Shown one piece after another: positions 2,362 through 18,505 of a DNA stretch of 21,008 nt (the first letter of the stretch is position 1; each line of letters starts with the position of its first letter). The notes beneath the pieces were generated by a model. That model was given only the letters and a program-made list of their open reading frames with translations, was not told where the DNA came from and made no database searches. Position numbers and translations under genes: made by a program. Source of the DNA: a virus (taxonomy: Duplodnaviria; Heunggongvirae; Uroviricota; Caudoviricetes); the IMG/VR virus record IMGVR_UViG_2671180458_000004; one strand, 5' to 3'.

Positions 2362-3494
2362 TATTGCATTTCCTCTTTCATTTTCAGGAACTCGGCTTCG
2401 GTTTTACCCAGCAGATGGGCAGCGGCGATATCTTCAGCCGACAGCGCAGCGGTGGCAGTCTTTTTATCCGGCACGGTCACGGTGTCGGTCTGAAGGCCGG
2501 TCAGGGCCGCAACCGGCTGTCGGGCGTCAAGCTGTGCAGAAAGTGCCGCAACACCAATCTGCCCACCCAGTTGTTCCAGATAGCCGCGTTCGCTTTTGAA
2601 GATGCGCCCTTCGGATTCAGCCTTGTCCAGCACCTGCTCCAGTGTGGTGCTGCCGTGCTGTGCCGACAGCGCAACGTATTCGGTACGCAGGGCGTTATAC
2701 GTTTCAACGGGCACGTATTTCGTCAGATCAATACTGCCTCCAGCCGGTGTGCCTTTTGCGGTTTCCAGCTCTGCCGACAGACTGGCGACCTGTGTTTTCA
2801 GGTTGTCGTGTGCATCCGCACGGGTTTTGATCCCGGTGAGTGCAGACAGCGCCGCCGTGCCCAGCTCCGGCGTAAATTCGTCACCGTCAGCCACGGTCAG
2901 ACCGAGCGCCGTCAGCAACTGGCGTAATTGCTCATTCATGGGGTGTTGCTCCTGAGAAGGGGAAACTACATAGAGATCGTCAGCACTGAGTGCTGCGACA
3001 GGGTTCATACCCGTAATACCTGGATCATTCGTCAGGGAAGCCATGCGCAACAGGTAGGGTTCCCCGGTGTCAGCGAAATAATGCATATACGCAGACAGAT
3101 AGGCATATTCACGGTCATCAATATGTTTTTGGGCCTGCGGCGTCCATTCAGGTTTAATGAAAATCCCCTGACCCTCACGCCATTCGATGTTTTCCGGCTT
3201 AACCCAACCTGCGGCAATGGCCTTAAATCCGTTTTTCTGCGCATTCATGGAGTGATGGTCATAATCAATCAGTAACGGCTGATTCAGGGCGGAAAGCCCG
3301 GCTTTCATCCGGTTGCAGGCGGATTCGTTAATCAGCCAGCCTTCAGCCGGTTTTTCCGGGCGACCGTCACGGGCCTTTACCCTGCCTGCTGGCAGTAACT
3401 GACACCATCCGTCGCCGGATGCAGTCAGCGAAGCTGAAAGCACGGCTAAACCAGAGGGGCGATTTGCGTCTTTTGGGTGATTTTCTGTCTTCAT
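2361..3494 (-). CDS. I: Mu I-like head protease/scaffold protein (gp32-like)
   Basis: 377 aa; stop overlaps the T start (TAATG); no clear SD at the listed start, so the true start may differ. Confidence 0.85.
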   Translation of the reverse strand: MKTENHPKDANRPSGLAVLSASLTASGDGWCQLLPAGRVKARDGRPEKPAEGWLINESACNRMKAGLSALNQPLLIDYDHHSMNAQKNGFKAIAAGWVKPENIEWREGQGIFIKPEWTPQAQKHIDDREYAYLSAYMHYFADTGEPYLLRMASLTNDPGITGMNPVAALSADDLYVVSPSQEQHPMNEQLRQLLTALGLTVADGDEFTPELGTAALSALTGIKTRADAHDNLKTQVASLSAELETAKGTPAGGSIDLTKYVPVETYNALRTEYVALSAQHGSTTLEQVLDKAESEGRIFKSERGYLEQLGGQIGVAALSAQLDARQPVAALTGLQTDTVTVPDKKTATAALSAEDIAAAHLLGKTEAEFLKMKEEMQ

Positions 3495-3669
3495 ACCGGC
3501 AGCATAAGCCGGGAATTTTCAGGGCGGGTTTTGCGGGATTTCAGGAAGTATTTTCAGGGAAAAATGCAAAGGCGCTTCACGCAGATTTTAAAGCCCGTTA
3601 AATACAGGTTAGAAAATCACGACACGCGCCTGAAGGGGGTAAGGTAATGCATTTGCATACCTTAAACAA
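3495..3669 (-). promoter_or_regulatory. Candidate late promoter region upstream of I, with three direct TTTCAGG repeats
   Basis: 175-bp ORF-free gap; TTTCAGG on the plus strand at 3517-3523, 3539-3545 and 3552-3558; short inverted repeat ATGCA-TT-TGCAT at 3647-3658; position corresponds to Mu late promoter P_I. Confidence 0.4.
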
Positions 3670-4170: not shown

Positions 4171-4265
4171 AAATAAACAGGCGGTCAGTGTACGCTTAAC
4201 TGGTAAAGTCGGTGCCTGCCTCCGGGTGGATCATGTATGCGGGTTCGACCCCCGCCACTGACCGT
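4171..4265. other. Structured element in the F-G gap: long closing stem plus an inner hairpin with a tRNA T-arm-like loop; terminator-like on the minus strand
   Basis: Plus strand: GTCAGTG (4184-4190) pairs perfectly with CACTGAC (4256-4262); inner hairpin GCGGG-TTCGACC-CCCGC (4239-4255). Minus strand: the structure is followed by CTGTTTATTTTATATT. Confidence 0.35.
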
Positions 4266-9707: not shown

Positions 9708-10012
9708 TGCGTTTTTTTCCTTACAGCCTGCTCCAGCAGCAGTTCGTTCTGATAGGAGACAGAGCGGAGCGTGGCGTTCGTGGTTTTCAGTTCACCCCGC
9801 AGGGTCACGATTTCCACATTCAGACGGTTGACCTCGGCTTCTGTCGGCAGTGACGACAGGCGGGTTTCCACCTTCTCAACGCGGTCGGAGAGTTTTTCAA
9901 AGGCCTCGCGGGGGACAAACGTTTTGCGCATCAGCGCCATGAATATCCCGCCAGCGGTTGCCGTCGCCGAAAGGATCGGCACAACATAATCTTTAACGAT
10001 GCTGACCCACAT
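9704..10012 (-). CDS. Mu gp25-like membrane-tethered protein (DUF2730-like), candidate releasin
   Basis: 102 aa; N-terminal hydrophobic helix then a coiled-coil-like cytoplasmic part; sits where Mu gp25 lies; 20-nt overlap with the upstream gene. Confidence 0.6.
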   Translation of the reverse strand: MWVSIVKDYVVPILSATATAGGIFMALMRKTFVPREAFEKLSDRVEKVETRLSSLPTEAEVNRLNVEIVTLRGELKTTNATLRSVSYQNELLLEQAVRKKTQ

Positions 10013-10220
10013 GACGGGCCTCCATGATGTTCTGGCAGTTCACACAACGGATGGCATCCGGCACCGCAACAAGACGTGCGGCGGGGATCTCTCCGCCACA
10101 GTCTGCGCAGACACGTCTGCCCGGAGCATCCATTGCCCGGCGCTTACGTGTCAGCCGGTTACAAAGGGCGCGTTCTGATCCCCGCTCCATCACAGCCTGA
10201 GCACGATCTGAATCATCCAT
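9993..10220 (-). CDS. TraR/DksA-family C4 zinc-finger protein (Mu gp24 position)
   Basis: Four Cys as CxxC-x17-CxxC (CADCGGEIPAARLVAVPDAIRCVNC); start moved to the ATG at 10220 (AGGAAA RBS), giving about 75 aa. Confidence 0.8.
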   Translation of the reverse strand: MDDSDRAQAVMERGSERALCNRLTRKRRAMDAPGRRVCADCGGEIPAARLVAVPDAIRCVNCQNIMEARHVGQHR

Positions 10221-10230
10221 ACCTTTTTCC

Positions 10231-10602
10231 TTACTTCGTCTTTCCTGCCGGAACAGCAGGCGTTCCGGCCATATCAGTAAATTCATGTTGTCGCCGCGCC
10301 TCCAGACGACGAATACTGGCCTTGTCCACGTTGCAGTTCTTGATCACCGCCAGCAGTTGCAGGTTGTAAGTGACCGATGCCCCAAACGTGAACGGCTCCG
10401 GCGCAGGAGGGACCAGGCAGTCAGCCAGCCATTCAGCGGGGATCGGCACCGGCTTCACAGGCACGTATTTCACAGACGGCCCGGCGCACCCGGTCAGCCA
10501 CATCATCAGGAACAGGGACAGAGGCCGCAGGCACTGCTGCCAGCGACCGGCGGACAACGCTCTGCTGCTCCTCGCTGTGCTGAATGTTCTGTTGTTTTTC
10601 AT
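10231..10602 (-). CDS. o-spanin (Rz1-like outer-membrane lipoprotein), overlapping the i-spanin gene in another frame
   Basis: Lipobox L-T-G-C followed by a Pro-rich mature region with C-terminal cysteines; starts inside the i-spanin gene and runs past its stop. The ATG at 10602 (GAGG upstream) gives an unusually long pre-lipobox region; an in-frame TTG near 10557 is an alternative. Confidence 0.6.
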   Translation of the reverse strand: MKNNRTFSTARSSRALSAGRWQQCLRPLSLFLMMWLTGCAGPSVKYVPVKPVPIPAEWLADCLVPPAPEPFTFGASVTYNLQLLAVIKNCNVDKASIRRLEARRQHEFTDMAGTPAVPAGKTK

Positions 10603-10895: not shown

Positions 10896-11396
10896 TCAGA
10901 CTTTCGGCAAGTCGTAGCGACATAACCATTCATCCGCCGAACGGCGGGCCTCAAGGCCGGGGAGTTTCACCCCCTTTGAATAAATCCAGCGGATATACTG
11001 CTTACAGGACGCGGGCATCTGCCCGGCATTGATCAGGCGCAGAAGCGTGGAGTTGCGGAAGTTCGTTTCACCGGCCCAGAAGATCCACGAAGCCAGCGCC
11101 ACCGTCTGACCACGGGTAAGCGGCACCTGAACACGCCGATCAATGGCCGCAAAGGCCCATTTCATGTCCTTTTCCAGCAGTTCCAGGCATTCTTCATCCG
11201 TCAGGGTCATACCCGGTTTCACATCCGGGCCGGTATGGCCGTAACAGATGGTGGGTGTACCGGTGGGATCGATATACGTGGAGTTTTCTTTCCCTTCCCA
11301 GTAACCGGTGTAATGCGTGGCAATCGTGAACGTCCCGGCACCGGCCAGAACAAGGGCAATCAGCTTTTTACGCAGTGGTGCGGGGAGTTTTGGCAT
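10896..11396 (-). CDS. lys: Endolysin, T4-lysozyme-like (GH24) with N-terminal signal-anchor-release domain
   Basis: 166 aa; basic N-terminus MPKLPAPLRKK followed by a Gly/Ala-rich weakly hydrophobic stretch; catalytic spacing E-x8-D-x5-T in YWEGKENSTYIDPTGTPT. Confidence 0.9.
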   Translation of the reverse strand: MPKLPAPLRKKLIALVLAGAGTFTIATHYTGYWEGKENSTYIDPTGTPTICYGHTGPDVKPGMTLTDEECLELLEKDMKWAFAAIDRRVQVPLTRGQTVALASWIFWAGETNFRNSTLLRLINAGQMPASCKQYIRWIYSKGVKLPGLEARRSADEWLCRYDLPKV

Positions 11397-11467
11397 TGTT
11401 ACGCTGTCTCATGATGTTCTCTGAGTCAGCGTAACGGTGAAGGAAAGGCGGCAGGCTTTGCGGAATA
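11397..11467 (-). promoter_or_regulatory. Candidate activator-dependent late promoter / 5' leader of lys, with a 9-bp inverted repeat
   Basis: 71-bp gap between the mor stop and lys ATG; perfect inverted repeat GTTACGCTG (11398-11406) / CAGCGTAAC (11427-11435), 20-bp spacer, left arm abutting the lys start; position analogous to Mu Plys. Confidence 0.4.
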
Positions 11468-11893
11468 TCAGAAAAGTGGCGGTTGCGTTCTTGCCAGATG
11501 CAGACGGCGCTGTTCGCGTATGACGGTATAAATCTGGGTTTCTGACATCCGGTAATGGCGGCGAAGGGATTCAATTTTCTCGCCCCGGTCCCAGCGCGAA
11601 AATATCTCATTGTTTCGCAGCTCGGCAAAGAGAGATTCCCCGACCGGCAGGTAATAACCCCGTCCGCCCATATAGGCTGCCTGAGCCGCAGCCACCTTGC
11701 GTGCCAGTTTACCGGCCAGTACCGGCTCAATCCCCTGACGCTGAAGTTCTGCGCCAGTGACTTCAACCAGTTCTGACAGGGTCCGCGGCCAGTTCTTTTT
11801 GAGAACATCATCAGGGATGTCATCAAGGCGGTCGATAAGGGCGTGCAGTTGCTCACTGTCACCACCAAACATGCTCATCTGAGTTTCTGCCAT
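11468..11893 (-). CDS. mor: Mor/C-family transcriptional activator (middle/late gene activator)
   Basis: 141 aa, the size of Mu Mor (129 aa) and C (140 aa); GGAGG about 6 nt upstream; located between gemA and lys. Confidence 0.85.
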   Translation of the reverse strand: MAETQMSMFGGDSEQLHALIDRLDDIPDDVLKKNWPRTLSELVEVTGAELQRQGIEPVLAGKLARKVAAAQAAYMGGRGYYLPVGESLFAELRNNEIFSRWDRGEKIESLRRHYRMSETQIYTVIREQRRLHLARTQPPLF

Positions 11894-11925
11894 ATCAGCC
11901 TCCGGTTCTCGCGTTCCCGGTAAGT

Positions 11926-11958
11926 TTAAAATAAAAATCCCGCGTTGTGGCGGGATTT
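11926..11958 (-). terminator. Rho-independent terminator/attenuator between gemA and mor
   Basis: Perfect 9-bp stem AAATCCCGC/GCGGGATTT (11935-11943 with 11950-11958) around a 6-nt loop; on the minus strand it is followed by TTTTATTTT; begins 4 nt after the gemA stop. Confidence 0.7.
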
Positions 11959-11962
11959 GGGG

Positions 11963-12472
11963 TTAACGGGGAAGTGATTTTTCATACTGCCTGCAAACGG
12001 CGTCATACCCCATCAGCGTGCGTTCGGGCATTCCCATCGCGGCCAGCATTTTGCGGCGGTGCCATCGCTTGAGACGCTCCAGCACATCTGAGGCCAGGGC
12101 GGGGTGTTGCTCCAGCCACTGCCAGTTTGCCACACCTTCGCCGCCGTTTTGCGCGGCCGTCTGCGATTTCACCCAGCGGTTAAGGGCGGTTTCCGCACCA
12201 TCAGAGATAAAGCCCTGCCGGTGCATCACCTTCCAGATGGCGCGAATTTTAGCGGTCACCGTACCCGGTTTTAAGGCCCGGTTAACCGGGTTCTGACGCA
12301 CTTTAAAACCGCGTTTTTTGAAAACATCCAGCACGCGGGACAACTCATCCGGTGACATATCCCGGCAGCTGGTTTTGCCGGTGGCTGCCAGCAGCACGAA
12401 TGTATAAGTCTCATCATCCAGGGCAAGCTCGCGCTTTGCCACATGAATGGCGGATATCAGTTTTCCTCTCAT
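11963..12472 (-). CDS. gemA: GemA-family protein (Mu gp16-like, DUF1018)
   Basis: 169 aa; N-terminal MRGKLISAIHVAKRELALDDETY pattern recalled as typical of Mu GemA homologs; sits just upstream of mor as in Mu. Confidence 0.8.
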   Translation of the reverse strand: MRGKLISAIHVAKRELALDDETYTFVLLAATGKTSCRDMSPDELSRVLDVFKKRGFKVRQNPVNRALKPGTVTAKIRAIWKVMHRQGFISDGAETALNRWVKSQTAAQNGGEGVANWQWLEQHPALASDVLERLKRWHRRKMLAAMGMPERTLMGYDAVCRQYEKSLPR

Positions 12473-18010: not shown

Positions 18011-18265
18011 TCACTCCTCCCAGTAAACCGTGCAGCCGCTGATGCGGGTAGCCTTCACACGGCGGCGCAGGCCGTTGGTCTGTATGGTGATTTCAATTTC
18101 ACCGGTTCCCTTAACTTCGCTTACCGGCGGCGTGGTTTTCAGGGCATAACGTTGTGGGTAGCGTTTGCTGCGTTCCAGTACCGCACCGGCAAGTTCAGTC
18201 AGACGGCGTGCACTGTTCAGGGAGTCGAATAAATTCATTTTTTTACCGCAGGATTGCATATTCAT
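18011..18265 (-). CDS. Hypothetical early protein (about 84 aa)
   Basis: ORF 18011..18277; the internal ATG at 18265 is preferred because GAGGTG lies about 5 nt upstream; the stop is 1 nt before the next gene's start. Confidence 0.5.
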   Translation of the reverse strand: MNMQSCGKKMNLFDSLNSARRLTELAGAVLERSKRYPQRYALKTTPPVSEVKGTGEIEITIQTNGLRRRVKATRISGCTVYWEE

Positions 18266-18277
18266 ATAACACCTCAT

Positions 18278-18505
18278 TTAGCTGACTTGTTTCGCACCAA
18301 CAGAACGGCATATTCCGCTGTAAACTTCTGTCGCACCTTCGCGATCAAGTCCGGCAGATATCACCATTCGTGTGCGGTCATTAAATTCAAAAAGTAAATC
18401 GCCACATTCTTTATTTTCGGCCAGTGAAATCACCTTCACGTTATCGAAATTAACCAGGTAAAAGCGTCCGTAAATATCAGGAATATTAAATACCGCCATA
18501 ATCAC
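18278..18505 (-). CDS. Small early protein at the kil position of Mu (75 aa); function not established
   Basis: GTG at 18505 overlaps the B stop (GTGA); an in-frame ATG at 18499 with AGGTG upstream is an alternative start. Kil-like only by position and size. Confidence 0.5.
   Translation of the reverse strand: MIMAVFNIPDIYGRFYLVNFDNVKVISLAENKECGDLLFEFNDRTRMVISAGLDREGATEVYSGICRSVGAKQVS

What the first reader, a model, noticed from the sequence alone, without database searches (positions are those of the whole stretch)
11397..11893. Single Mor/C-family activator directly upstream of lys, with an inverted repeat abutting the lys start
In Mu, mor and C are separate genes in a two-step cascade with further genes between mor and lys. 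Here one Mor/C-family gene is followed after 71 bp by the endolysin gene, implying a compressed cascade. The gap holds a perfect 9-bp inverted repeat (GTTACGCTG / CAGCGTAAC, 20-bp spacer) whose arm touches the lys ATG, where no good SD is visible. It could be an activator site or an RNA hairpin controlling lys translation.
Basis: partly seen in the sequence, partly recalled or inferred. Interest (0 to 1): 0.5.

Follow-up and report, generated by a model that had tools for sequence, protein, structure and literature searches.

The report
Hairpin gate on Mu-like phage endolysin
In this Mu-like E. coli prophage, the inverted repeat in front of the cell-bursting (endolysin) gene is most likely an RNA hairpin that blocks translation of early read-through transcripts, while the late promoter sits inside the hairpin's first arm so late transcripts escape it; this is the trick known from phage T4 lysozyme, here predicted from sequence only.

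Summary
A 141-aa Mor/C-family gene (11468-11893, minus strand) lies 71 bp upstream of lys (10896-11396). The gap holds a perfect 9-bp inverted repeat (GTTACGCTG / CAGCGTAAC, 20-nt spacer) ending 1 nt before the lys ATG, and the SD is weak.

The window is an Sp18-type Mu-like prophage (231 of 5,426 complete E. coli genomes). It has a single Mor/C gene, closer to Mu C (39%) than to Mu Mor (27%). In Mu, C also sits directly upstream of lys (94 bp). A single activator after gemA is the commoner state (79 of 102 loci), so the layout is ordinary.

The repeat cannot be the activator site, because Mu C binds around -43.5. Its 5' arm contains the predicted -10 hexamer (TACGCT) of a C-type late promoter; the same box and spacing recur upstream of gene I. 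Late transcripts should therefore start inside the repeat and lack the hairpin. Read-through transcripts from the activator gene would fold (-18.6 kcal/mol) and cover the lys ribosome-binding region.

Fourteen sequence-diverse lineages, including Mu, have non-homologous hairpins at this position (mean z -3.5 against -0.4 for other gene starts, p = 2e-8). This matches T4 gene e. Everything is computational; no transcription start is mapped.

The parts
11468..11893 (-). Single Mor/C-family transcription activator, C-like (141 aa)
   Evidence: Pfam Mor E=2.8e-32. 39% identical to Mu C (E=4e-35) against 27% to Mu Mor (E=3e-14). It is the only family member in the 52.6-kb prophage region (family HMM E=5.7e-59, next best 0.17).
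10896..11396 (-). lys, endolysin (lysozyme family) with an N-terminal SAR-like segment
   Evidence: Pfam Phage_lysozyme E=6.3e-37. 39% identical to Mu Lys gp22 (E=9e-35), which is a proven SAR endolysin (PMC9239132). The SAR character of the window protein is inferred from that alignment and from its basic N-terminus followed by a Gly/Ala-rich hydrophobic stretch.
11450..11471 (-). Late-promoter box CTGATATTCCGCAAAGCCTGCC, the putative activator-binding region; it overlaps the activator's stop codon
   Evidence: The same 22-nt box (18 of 22 bases identical) lies 16 nt upstream of a TAYGCT hexamer in front of gene I. It is invariant in 84-86% relatives while the flanking coding sequence varies. 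It is related to CTGATATGTCGCAAAC in Pasteurellaceae and to ATAATCCCGCACCTGCC in Mu Plys. It spans about -50 to -29 if the TSS is at 11421.
11428..11433 (-). Predicted -10 hexamer TACGCT of the C-dependent lys promoter
   Evidence: It has the same spacing from the box as TATGCT at the gene I promoter. It aligns with the TAGACT -10 of Mu Plys (local alignment score 38, shuffles 21 +/- 3.9, 0 of 500 as good). No sigma-70 -35/-10 pair is found in the gap. This is inferred, not mapped.
11421..11424 (-). Predicted late transcription start (4-7 nt after the hexamer), inside the repeat's spacer
   Evidence: Inferred from the -10 position. It corresponds to about NC_002695.2 5051488-5051491 (+) in O157 Sakai, from the mapping.
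11427..11435 (-). 5' arm of the inverted repeat, GTTACGCTG; it contains the -10 hexamer
11398..11406 (-). 3' arm of the inverted repeat, CAGCGTAAC; it covers positions -10 to -2 of the lys translation initiation region
11398..11435 (-). Full RNA hairpin (9-bp outer stem plus 6-bp inner stem), -18.6 kcal/mol; predicted to form only in transcripts that start upstream
   Evidence: Hairpin MFE is -18.6 kcal/mol; the read-through segment has z=-6.4; the predicted late transcript has MFE -2.1 to -2.9. The unpaired probability of the RBS rises from 0.27 (read-through) to 0.61 (late transcript).
3501..3544 (-). Second copy of the late-promoter box (3544-3523) and -10 TATGCT (3506-3501), upstream of protease gene I
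   Evidence: This copy is what identifies the promoter elements at lys.
11923..11959 (-). Upstream of the activator gene: terminator-like hairpin (11958-11935) overlapping CAAATCCCGCC (11959-11949), then a T-tract and TATTTT/TAAACT (11933-11923); a possible activator-dependent, autoregulated promoter
   Evidence: Terminator scan. It is the third hit of CAAANCCNGCC-N14-17-TANNNT in 41.7 kb (0.01 expected; the pattern was trimmed post hoc). The layout ATCCCGCC-N5-6-GCGGGAT + T5-6 + TATACT/TATAAT is conserved in other single-activator lineages. Suggestive only.

Best explanation
The gap between the activator gene and lys holds a C-type late promoter: an activator box at about -50 to -29, the -10 hexamer TACGCT, and no -35. 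The inverted repeat is an RNA device laid over it.

Transcripts that start upstream run through the activator gene into lys, because the gap has no terminator. In these the two arms pair, and together with an inner helix they bury the weak ribosome-binding region of lys up to position -2. Little endolysin is then made while the activator is accumulating.

Once the activator fires the late promoter, transcription starts a few bases after TACGCT. That is downstream of the 5' arm, so the late lys mRNA lacks that arm, stays unfolded and is translated.

Shown here: the sequence elements, their repetition at gene I, the fold energies, and the recurrence of non-homologous hairpins at the same position in many lineages. 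Inferred: the transcription start, read-through from the activator gene, the effect on translation, and the benefit (avoiding premature lysis by a SAR endolysin in a probably holin-less, releasin-type lysis system).
For: (1) Promoter assignment. The box CTGAnATnCCGCAAAnCCnGCC followed after 16 nt by TAYGCT occurs twice with identical spacing, upstream of lys and of gene I. The gap aligns with Mu's C-lys gap, which holds the mapped Plys, better than any of 500 shuffles. No sigma-70 promoter or terminator is detected in the gap.

(2) Geometry. The 5' arm (11435-11427) contains the hexamer (11433-11428), so any start 4-9 nt downstream of the hexamer excludes that arm.

(3) Energetics. The hairpin is -18.6 kcal/mol, and the read-through segment has z=-6.4. 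The predicted late transcript is -2.1 to -2.9 kcal/mol. RBS unpaired probability goes from 0.27 to 0.61.

(4) Comparative. In 14 lineages with different arm sequences (Sp18 type, L053, L065, Kluyvera, L057, Erwinia type, L066, L014, Edwardsiella, L074, three Pasteurellaceae types, and Mu), the 45 nt before the endolysin start fold unusually well: mean z -3.53 against -0.38 for 115 other gene starts in the same loci (Mann-Whitney p=2e-8). In 12 of 14 the 5'-most paired base lies within 5 nt of the first base of the -10 hexamer. The 3'-most paired base lies at -7 to +2 of the ATG in all 14. 11 of the 15 most structured gene-start leaders in these loci are the endolysin starts.

(5) Arm sequences change together with the -10: TACGCT with CAGCGTAAC, TATCCT with GGATAAG, TACCCT with AAGGAGGGT. 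The predicted stems contain 14 G.U pairs and no A.C mismatches, which fits sense-strand RNA better than a DNA palindrome.

(6) In Mu, Plys -60 to +8 suffices for activation (PMC2582627), so the 3' arm is not a promoter element there.

(7) Precedent. In T4 gene e the late promoters lie in the DNA encoding the 5' strand of a hairpin that sequesters the lysozyme translation initiation region in early transcripts (PMC3014915).

(8) Rationale. Mu Lys is a SAR endolysin in a holin-less system where timing is set at the endolysin level through the gp25 releasin, a DUF2730 protein (PMC9239132). The window encodes homologues of both.
Against: No transcription start is mapped for this prophage. The -10 rests on homology and on one other copy in the same genome.

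The box sits about 7 bp further from the -10 than the corresponding motif in Mu Plys (35 against 28 nt), so the promoter geometry is not identical to Mu's.

The AUG itself is not paired, and lys has almost no SD to hide, so the size of any translational effect is uncertain.

The repeat is invariant within the Sp18 family, so there is no within-family compensatory change. Support comes from non-alignable hairpins in other lineages, which share ancestry and are not fully independent.

With a leader of only about 25 nt, any strong hairpin that reaches the RBS must start near the -10, so the arm overlapping the -10 is not independent evidence.

The G.U count comes from MFE structures, which favour G.U pairs.

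One lineage (Kluyvera) has a weak z score (-0.47), and Mu's own hairpin is modest (7 bp, z=-2.2).

Window-wide, 9-bp inverted repeats are as frequent as chance predicts.
Confidence: 0.55

Rival explanations
1. The hairpin is part of the late lys mRNA itself because transcription starts upstream of the 5' arm. It would act as a 5' stabiliser or as a constitutive damper of endolysin translation, not as a read-through-specific gate.
For: The TSS is unmapped. The hairpin is strong, and lys has a very weak SD, so low-level expression could be the design. The box-to-hexamer spacing differs from Mu's by 7 bp, leaving some doubt about the promoter assignment.
Against: There is no alternative -10/-35 pair in the 36 nt between the activator's stop codon and the 5' arm. 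TACGCT/TATGCT lie at identical spacing from the shared box at two promoters. In Mu, the position implied by the published promoter numbers and the TAGACT hexamer puts +1 inside the 5' arm.
Confidence: 0.12
2. The repeat is a DNA operator for a protein: either the Mor/C activator, or a repressor acting at the lys promoter.
For: Mor/C proteins bind dyad-symmetric DNA as dimers or tetramers (PMC2582627; bioRxiv 10.1101/2025.05.02.651988). The repeat is perfect and invariant within the family.
Against: Mu C and Mor bind 16-bp dyads centred at -43.5, upstream of the -35 region (PMC2582627, PMC4287176). This repeat spans about -14 to +24 and ends 1 nt before the ATG. The arm motif is found nowhere else in the window beyond chance (4 matches with up to 1 mismatch against 3.4 expected, two of which are the arms themselves). 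Loop lengths in relatives range from 4 to 23 nt, arm sequences are unrelated, and mismatches are G.U rather than A.C. All of this is atypical for a conserved protein site.
Confidence: 0.07
3. The hairpin is a transcription terminator or attenuator that ends the activator-gene transcript before lys.
For: In Pasteurellaceae relatives the equivalent hairpin is followed by T6-T7 directly before the ATG and looks like an intrinsic terminator. Mu and Kluyvera-type relatives have a separate hairpin right after the C stop codon.
Against: In the window the stem is followed by AAUGCCAAAAC, with no U-run, and the terminator scan finds nothing in the gap. Enterobacterial relatives also lack U-tracts after this hairpin. 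This reading is compatible with the main explanation in Pasteurellaceae, where both effects could operate.
Confidence: 0.08
4. The repeat is a chance palindrome with no function. The single-activator layout is simply the ancestral Mu-like organisation.
For: Five such repeats occur in the window against 3.5 expected by chance. There is no within-family covariation.
Against: Only 0.35% of gap shuffles contain such a repeat. It is invariant while neighbouring intergenic bases vary. Endolysin leaders are by far the most structured gene starts in 14 lineages (p=2e-8).
Confidence: 0.1

Closest known systems
Bacteriophage T4 gene e (lysozyme) translational control (McPheeters et al. 1986, as reviewed in PMC3014915); the same design is described there for T4 soc, 49 and I-TevI
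   Same: A lysis gene lies downstream of earlier-expressed genes. A hairpin sequesters its translation initiation region in long transcripts. [quoted passage not shown] Related phages keep the arrangement.
   Different: T4 uses gp55-dependent late promoters (TATAAATA), whereas here it is a sigma-70 promoter dependent on a Mor/C-family activator. In T4 both the SD and the AUG are paired; here the 3' arm covers -10 to -2, the SD is nearly absent and the AUG is unpaired. The T4 case is proven experimentally, and this one is predicted only. The phages are unrelated, which implies convergence.
Bacteriophage Mu C-Plys-lys module and the Mor-to-C cascade (Howe laboratory; PMC2582627, PMC4461284)
   Same: The gene order gemA ... 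C-like activator, promoter gap, SAR-type lys, spanins, DUF2730 releasin homologue is shared. The activator is 39% identical to Mu C and Lys is 39% identical to Mu Lys. The promoter has a -10 hexamer without a -35, and late promoters share an upstream motif (Mu: a 10-bp match between Plys and PI; here a 22-nt box). Mu also has a 7-bp repeat, GCCATCA/TGATGGC, running from just after the -10 to across the lys ATG.
   Different: There is no mor and no gp18-20 middle operon. The gap is 71 bp instead of 94 bp. There is no hairpin directly after the activator's stop codon. The box is about 7 bp further from the -10. The activator gene is preceded by a terminator-like hairpin and a box-like motif rather than by Mu's Pm.
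Single-Mor/C Mu-like phages and prophages (SuMu PMC3447690, KS10 PMC2628397, Shewanella MuM16-1 PMC8541194, Pasteurella Pmp9, E. coli O157 Sp18 PMC2669165)
   Same: The gemA homologue is followed by one Mor/C-family gene and then the lysis or late genes. The window is 99-100% identical to the Sp18-type prophage.
   Different: Those papers list the gene but, in the passages I read, do not analyse its promoter targets or the lys leader.

Membership tests
Mor/C family of phage transcription activators (Pfam PF08765) | Significant match to the family profile over its full length | tested here: met
   E=2.8e-32, 111 bits against a cut-off of 24.9, profile positions 2-107 of 107.
Mor/C family of phage transcription activators (Pfam PF08765) | Small protein (about 100-150 aa) with conserved glycines in the beta-strand linker and a C-terminal HTH region (PMC2582627) | tested here: met
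   141 aa. G76 and G77 are invariant in the alignment with Mu C and Pmp9, and the C-terminal block S117, I121, Y122, I125, Q128, R129 is conserved.
Mor/C family of phage transcription activators (Pfam PF08765) | Activates sigma-70 promoters that lack a -35 by binding an upstream dyad | not testable with these tools
   Only candidate target promoters could be identified.
C subtype (late activator) as opposed to Mor subtype (middle activator) | Closer in sequence to Mu C than to Mu Mor | tested here: met
   39% identity over 137 aa, E=4e-35 to C; 27% over 127 aa, E=3e-14 to Mor. The best tblastn hit in Mu records is the C gene.
C subtype (late activator) as opposed to Mor subtype (middle activator) | Gene located immediately upstream of lys, with the late lys promoter in the gap | tested here: met
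   71-bp gap here, 94 bp in Mu, and 81-124 bp in relatives from Edwardsiella, Kluyvera, an unnamed Enterobacteriaceae genome and Pasteurellaceae.
C subtype (late activator) as opposed to Mor subtype (middle activator) | Expressed from a Mor-dependent middle promoter | tested here: not met
   There is no Mor or other family member in the prophage (Pfam on the early ORFs). Its mode of expression must therefore differ from that of Mu C.
Mu-type C-dependent late promoter | Recognisable -10 hexamer but no -35 hexamer | tested here: met
   TACGCT has T1, A2 and T6. The sigma-70 scan finds no -35/-10 pair in the gap.
Mu-type C-dependent late promoter | Upstream element shared among the phage's late promoters | tested here: met
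   A 22-nt box is shared by the lys and gene I upstream regions at identical spacing. No equivalents were found for the P or mom promoters.
Mu-type C-dependent late promoter | 16-bp imperfect dyad centred at -43.5 (PMC2582627) | tested here: inconclusive
   The box spans about -50 to -29 (centre about -39.5) if the TSS is at 11421. I could not identify a clear dyad in it, and the motif lies 7 bp further from the -10 than in Mu.
Mu-type C-dependent late promoter | Activity depends on the activator; mapped +1 | not testable with these tools
   This needs reporter fusions and 5' end mapping.
T4 gene e-type gate (inhibitory hairpin over the translation initiation region, with the late promoter in its 5' strand) | Stable hairpin that includes the ribosome-binding region of the lysis gene | tested here: met
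   -18.6 kcal/mol; the 3' arm covers -10 to -2; z=-6.4; RBS unpaired probability 0.27. The AUG itself is not paired.
T4 gene e-type gate (inhibitory hairpin over the translation initiation region, with the late promoter in its 5' strand) | The late promoter lies in the DNA encoding the 5' strand, so late transcripts lack that strand | tested here: met
   The predicted -10 (11433-11428) lies inside the 5' arm (11435-11427). This rests on a predicted promoter, not a mapped one.
T4 gene e-type gate (inhibitory hairpin over the translation initiation region, with the late promoter in its 5' strand) | Earlier transcripts read through into the gene and are poorly translated | not testable with these tools
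   The only support is the absence of a terminator in the gap.
T4 gene e-type gate (inhibitory hairpin over the translation initiation region, with the late promoter in its 5' strand) | Arrangement conserved in related phages despite sequence change | tested here: met
   14 lineages; mean z -3.53 against -0.38 for controls; p=2e-8.
Intrinsic (Rho-independent) terminator | GC-rich stem followed by a U-run | tested here: not met
   The stem is followed by AAUGCCAAAAC, and the terminator scan reports nothing in the gap.
Known RNA families (Rfam 15) | Match to any covariance model | tested here: not met
   No match up to E=1 in 11200-12100 on either strand.

The most novel reading that the evidence does not exclude
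Mu-like transposable phages as a group, including Mu itself, gate endolysin translation with a T4-gene-e-like hairpin whose 5' strand carries the C-dependent late promoter. In the majority that lack Mor, the single C-like activator also drives its own promoter: a box-like motif and a -10 hexamer sit on the early-operon terminator just upstream of the gene. The two-step Mor-to-C cascade would then be replaced by one self-amplifying switch. This would add a post-transcriptional layer to lysis timing in phages that have no holin.
Probability: 0.3. Interest if true: 0.6.

Novelty: new member of a known kind. Interest (0 to 1): 0.42.

Why it matters
The gene layout itself is ordinary, and I score that part low. 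The repeat is more useful.

If it works as proposed, it is an independently evolved copy of the classic T4 lysozyme control, in a phage family that uses a different kind of late promoter. It also appears to be present in Mu, one of the best-studied phages, where I found no report of it.

Mu has no holin and sets lysis timing at the endolysin level (PMC9239132). A translational gate on lys would therefore be a relevant missing piece of that timing mechanism. A few reporter fusions and one 5'-end mapping experiment would test it.

It also gives practical promoter coordinates for the Sp18-type prophages, which occur in about 4% of complete E. coli genomes, including many Shiga-toxin-producing strains.

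Tried and rejected
- **MAFFT alignment of the window gap with Mu and Pmp9.** It did not align the promoter elements. A local pairwise alignment with a shuffle control was used instead.
- **Strict pattern with TTAYGCT.** It found only the lys copy in L001, because that strain has CCTATGCT at gene I. The pattern was relaxed afterwards.
- **Equivalents of Mu's P and mom promoters.** No box copy was found upstream of com/mom or the baseplate gene.
- **A second Mor/C gene.** tblastn at E<=10 and a family HMM run with --max over all ORFs of at least 40 aa in the 52.6-kb region gave nothing. A marginal tblastn hit to Mu Mor (E=0.007, about window 18191-18397) has no Pfam support.
- **Activator-site reading of the repeat.** Rejected on geometry, and because the arm motif occurs nowhere else beyond chance.
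- **Small ORF MRQRNNAKTPRTTA (11412-11368), which overlaps the lys start.** Rejected as coding. The two substitutions seen in the 84% relatives are synonymous in the lys frame and non-synonymous in the small ORF's frame.
- **Known RNA families:** none. **tRNAs in the window:** none.
- **Covariance model or pair counting across lineages.** Not attempted, because the hairpins differ in register, arm length and loop length (4-23 nt) and cannot be aligned column by column. Per-lineage folding with shuffles and an empirical control of other gene starts was used instead.
- **Primary Mu mapping papers** (Margolin 1986 and 1989, Chiang and Howe 1993). They are not held in the library. Mu's +1 was therefore inferred from the numbers quoted in PMC2582627 together with the sequence.
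Full report
**What is there.** The genes in this window run on the minus strand and form the left two-thirds of a Mu-like transposable prophage: transposase A (cut by the window end), B, gam, gemA (11963-12472), a Mor-family gene (11468-11893), lys (10896-11396), spanin-like genes, a TraR-like gene, DUF2730, gp27, terminase, portal, F, G, protease I and major head protein T. The DNA is 99-100% identical to the Sp18-type Mu-like prophage of E. coli O157:H7 Sakai and many other Shiga-toxin-producing strains. 231 of 5,426 complete E. coli genomes carry it or a close relative. Sp18 has been judged intact from its sequence (PMC2669165).

**The observation.** The gap is 71 bp. GTTACGCTG (11435-11427) and CAGCGTAAC (11406-11398) are separated by 20 nt, and one base lies between the 3' arm and the ATG at 11396. 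The SD is weak (-2.7 kcal/mol against -6 to -12 for most genes here). On its own the repeat is not statistically striking: five perfect 9-bp repeats with 3-40 nt spacers occur in the window against 3.5 +/- 2.4 in shuffles. Only 0.35% of shuffles of this gap contain one. As RNA the region folds better than its shuffles (z=-2.9 for 116 nt; z=-6.4 for the -10-to-ATG segment).

**The single-activator claim.** I joined two fetched stretches of a strain carrying the same prophage into a 52.6-kb region that covers the whole element from com/mom to the repressor end. A profile built from 56 distinct Mor/C-family sequences, run without filters over every ORF of at least 40 aa, finds one member (E=5.7e-59). 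The next best score is E=0.17, and that ORF lies outside the prophage. Pfam finds no Mor domain in the other early ORFs.

The gene is C-like: 39% identity to Mu C (E=4e-35) against 27% to Mu Mor (E=3e-14). In Mu itself, C (9963-10385) lies 94 bp upstream of lys (10480), with the C-dependent promoter Plys in the gap. Lys is also 39% identical to Mu Lys. Adjacency of the activator to lys is therefore the standard module. What this prophage lacks is mor and gp18-20.

This is not rare. Among 102 loci fetched with a family alignment from species-representative genomes and IMG/VR, only the 23 belonging to the true Mu clade have a second family member within the 2.5-3 kb flanks. Published Mu-like genomes list the same gemA then single Mor/C order (PMC3447690, PMC2628397, PMC8541194).

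**Where the lys promoter is.** Mu C binds a 16-bp imperfect dyad centred at -43.5 and protects about -30 to -55, and Plys -60 to +8 is sufficient for activation (PMC2582627). A site that ends 1 nt before the ATG cannot play that role for lys.

The same prophage carries upstream of protease gene I the sequence CTGAAATCCCGCAAAACCCGCC-N16-TATGCT. Upstream of lys it has CTGATATTCCGCAAAGCCTGCC-N16-TACGCT, with identical spacing. This parallels the 10-bp match between Mu's lys and I promoters noted in PMC4461284. The window's gap also aligns locally with Mu's C-lys gap better than any of 500 shuffles (score 38 against 21 +/- 3.9). In that alignment TTACGCTGAC-TCAGAGAA lies over Mu's TTAGACTGCCATCAGAGAA, where TAGACT is the Plys -10. 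The sigma-70 scan finds no conventional promoter and no terminator in the gap.

I therefore take TACGCT (11433-11428) as the -10 and 11424-11421 as the likely start. That puts the box at about -50 to -29. The -10 hexamer lies inside the 5' arm of the repeat.

**What the repeat does.** A transcript that starts at the late promoter begins downstream of the 5' arm, and it is essentially unstructured (-2.1 to -2.9 kcal/mol). A transcript coming from the activator gene contains both arms and forms a 38-nt hairpin of -18.6 kcal/mol that reaches position -2 of lys. The mean unpaired probability of positions -14 to +3 is 0.27 in the long RNA and 0.61 in the short one.

This is the logic established for T4 lysozyme gene e. 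There, long early transcripts sequester the translation initiation region, and the late promoters lie in the DNA encoding the 5' strand of the structure (PMC3014915).

**Comparative test.** I extracted the activator-to-endolysin gaps from all loci (49 distinct sequences). I noticed the recurring layout by eye, then tested it. For 20 representatives, the segment from 8 nt before the -10 hexamer to ATG+9 has mean z=-3.7, with 18 of 20 below -2.

Reduced to 14 lineages with different hairpin sequences, the 45 nt before the endolysin start (plus 9 nt of coding sequence) have mean z -3.53. For 115 other gene starts in the same loci the mean is -0.38 (Mann-Whitney p=2e-8). Eleven of the 15 most structured gene-start leaders are the endolysin starts.

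The arms differ between lineages and track the local -10 hexamer:

| Lineage | Hairpin layout |
|---|---|
| Kluyvera | CTTATCC-N21-GGATAAG-ctg-ATG |
| L074 | ACCCTCCTT-N9-AAGGAGGGT-ttc-ATG |
| L065 | TTCTGTCGTTA-N7-TAACGGACAGAA-atc-ATG |
| H. ducreyi type | ACTCCAACTATCAA-N7-TTGATAGTTGGAGT-T7-ATG |
| Mu | GCCATCA-N21-TGATGGC, across the lys ATG |

In 12 of 14 lineages the 5'-most paired base is within 5 nt of the first base of the hexamer. The stems hold 14 G.U pairs and no A.C mismatches.

Caveats:
- The lineages share ancestry.
- The G.U count comes from MFE structures.
- With so short a leader, any RBS-reaching hairpin must begin near the -10.
- Kluyvera's z score is weak (-0.47).
- Within the Sp18 family the repeat never varies.

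**Why it would be useful to the phage.** Mu Lys is a SAR endolysin. Mu has no holin, and release depends on gp25, a DUF2730 releasin, so timing is set at the endolysin level (PMC9239132). The window encodes homologues of both. There is no terminator between the activator gene and lys. Lys would otherwise be translated from the same RNA that makes the activator, before the virion genes are switched on. This step is inference.

**How the single activator might be expressed.** Between gemA and the activator gene lies a terminator-like hairpin (11958-11935) followed by a T-tract. It overlaps CAAATCCCGCC, which matches the 3' part of the late box. A TANNNT hexamer follows 15 nt later. The composite pattern CAAANCCNGCC-N14-17-TANNNT has three hits in 41.7 kb against 0.01 expected, upstream of I, lys and the activator gene. 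I trimmed the pattern after seeing the third site, so this is suggestive only.

Other single-activator lineages show ATCCCGCC-N5-6-GCGGGAT, then T5-6, then TATACT or TATAAT, at this position. The AATCCCGC motif is as far from the -10 hexamer there as it is in Mu's C-dependent Plys.

**Verdict.** The gene arrangement is already known and common. The repeat is real and conserved, and it is best explained as a T4-gene-e-like translational gate built around a C-type late promoter. I did not find this described for Mu-like phages in the library searched. It remains a sequence-based prediction.

Noticed in passing
window 3494-3544 (minus strand): At the gene I late promoter, the seventh base after the TATGCT hexamer (3506-3501) is the A of the first ATG of the protease gene (3494). 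There is no SD (-1.7 kcal/mol), so the late transcript of gene I may be leaderless. A 5-bp repeat, CCGGC/GCCGG, flanks the hexamer. Mu's gene I instead has a leader with AGGA (L104 2040-2059).
   Followed up: partly
window 11923-11959 (minus strand): A terminator-like hairpin between gemA and the activator gene overlaps a late-box-like motif (CAAATCCCGCC) and is followed by a T-tract and TATTTT/TAAACT. The same layout, with better -10 hexamers (TATACT, TATAAT), is conserved upstream of single activators in other genera. It may be an autoregulated promoter sitting on the early terminator.
   Followed up: partly
window about 4185-4264 (plus strand; L001 13386-13465): RefSeq annotates a 'tRNA-OTHER' in the gap between genes F and G of this prophage. 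ARAGORN finds no tRNA anywhere in the window.
   Followed up: partly
L003 498-1155 and L005 580-921 (relatives; equivalent to the window's gemA-activator gap, about 11894-11962): In some relatives the gap between gemA and the activator gene holds one or two extra genes, one on the opposite strand, so this gap is an insertion site for accessory genes. The hairpin and T-tract next to the activator gene are retained.
   Followed up: no
L013 about 3490-3620 and L063 (Erwinia-type relatives): The endolysin gene starts with a tandem expansion of CCCAAAAGC (a PKS repeat, at least 8 copies) directly after the first five codons (MPKIP), inside the cytoplasmic N-terminal segment.
   Followed up: no
window 11368-11412 (minus strand): A 14-codon ORF (MRQRNNAKTPRTTA) starts in the hairpin loop and overlaps the lys start in another frame. 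The substitutions in relatives are synonymous for lys and non-synonymous for this ORF, so it is probably not coding.
   Followed up: yes
L008 3514-4560 (right end of the same prophage, outside the window): The prophage carries com and mom homologues. The region upstream of com holds a GATC-rich dyad (ATCGATCGTTTTTGTCGATCGAT) but no copy of the late-promoter box found at lys and I.
   Followed up: no
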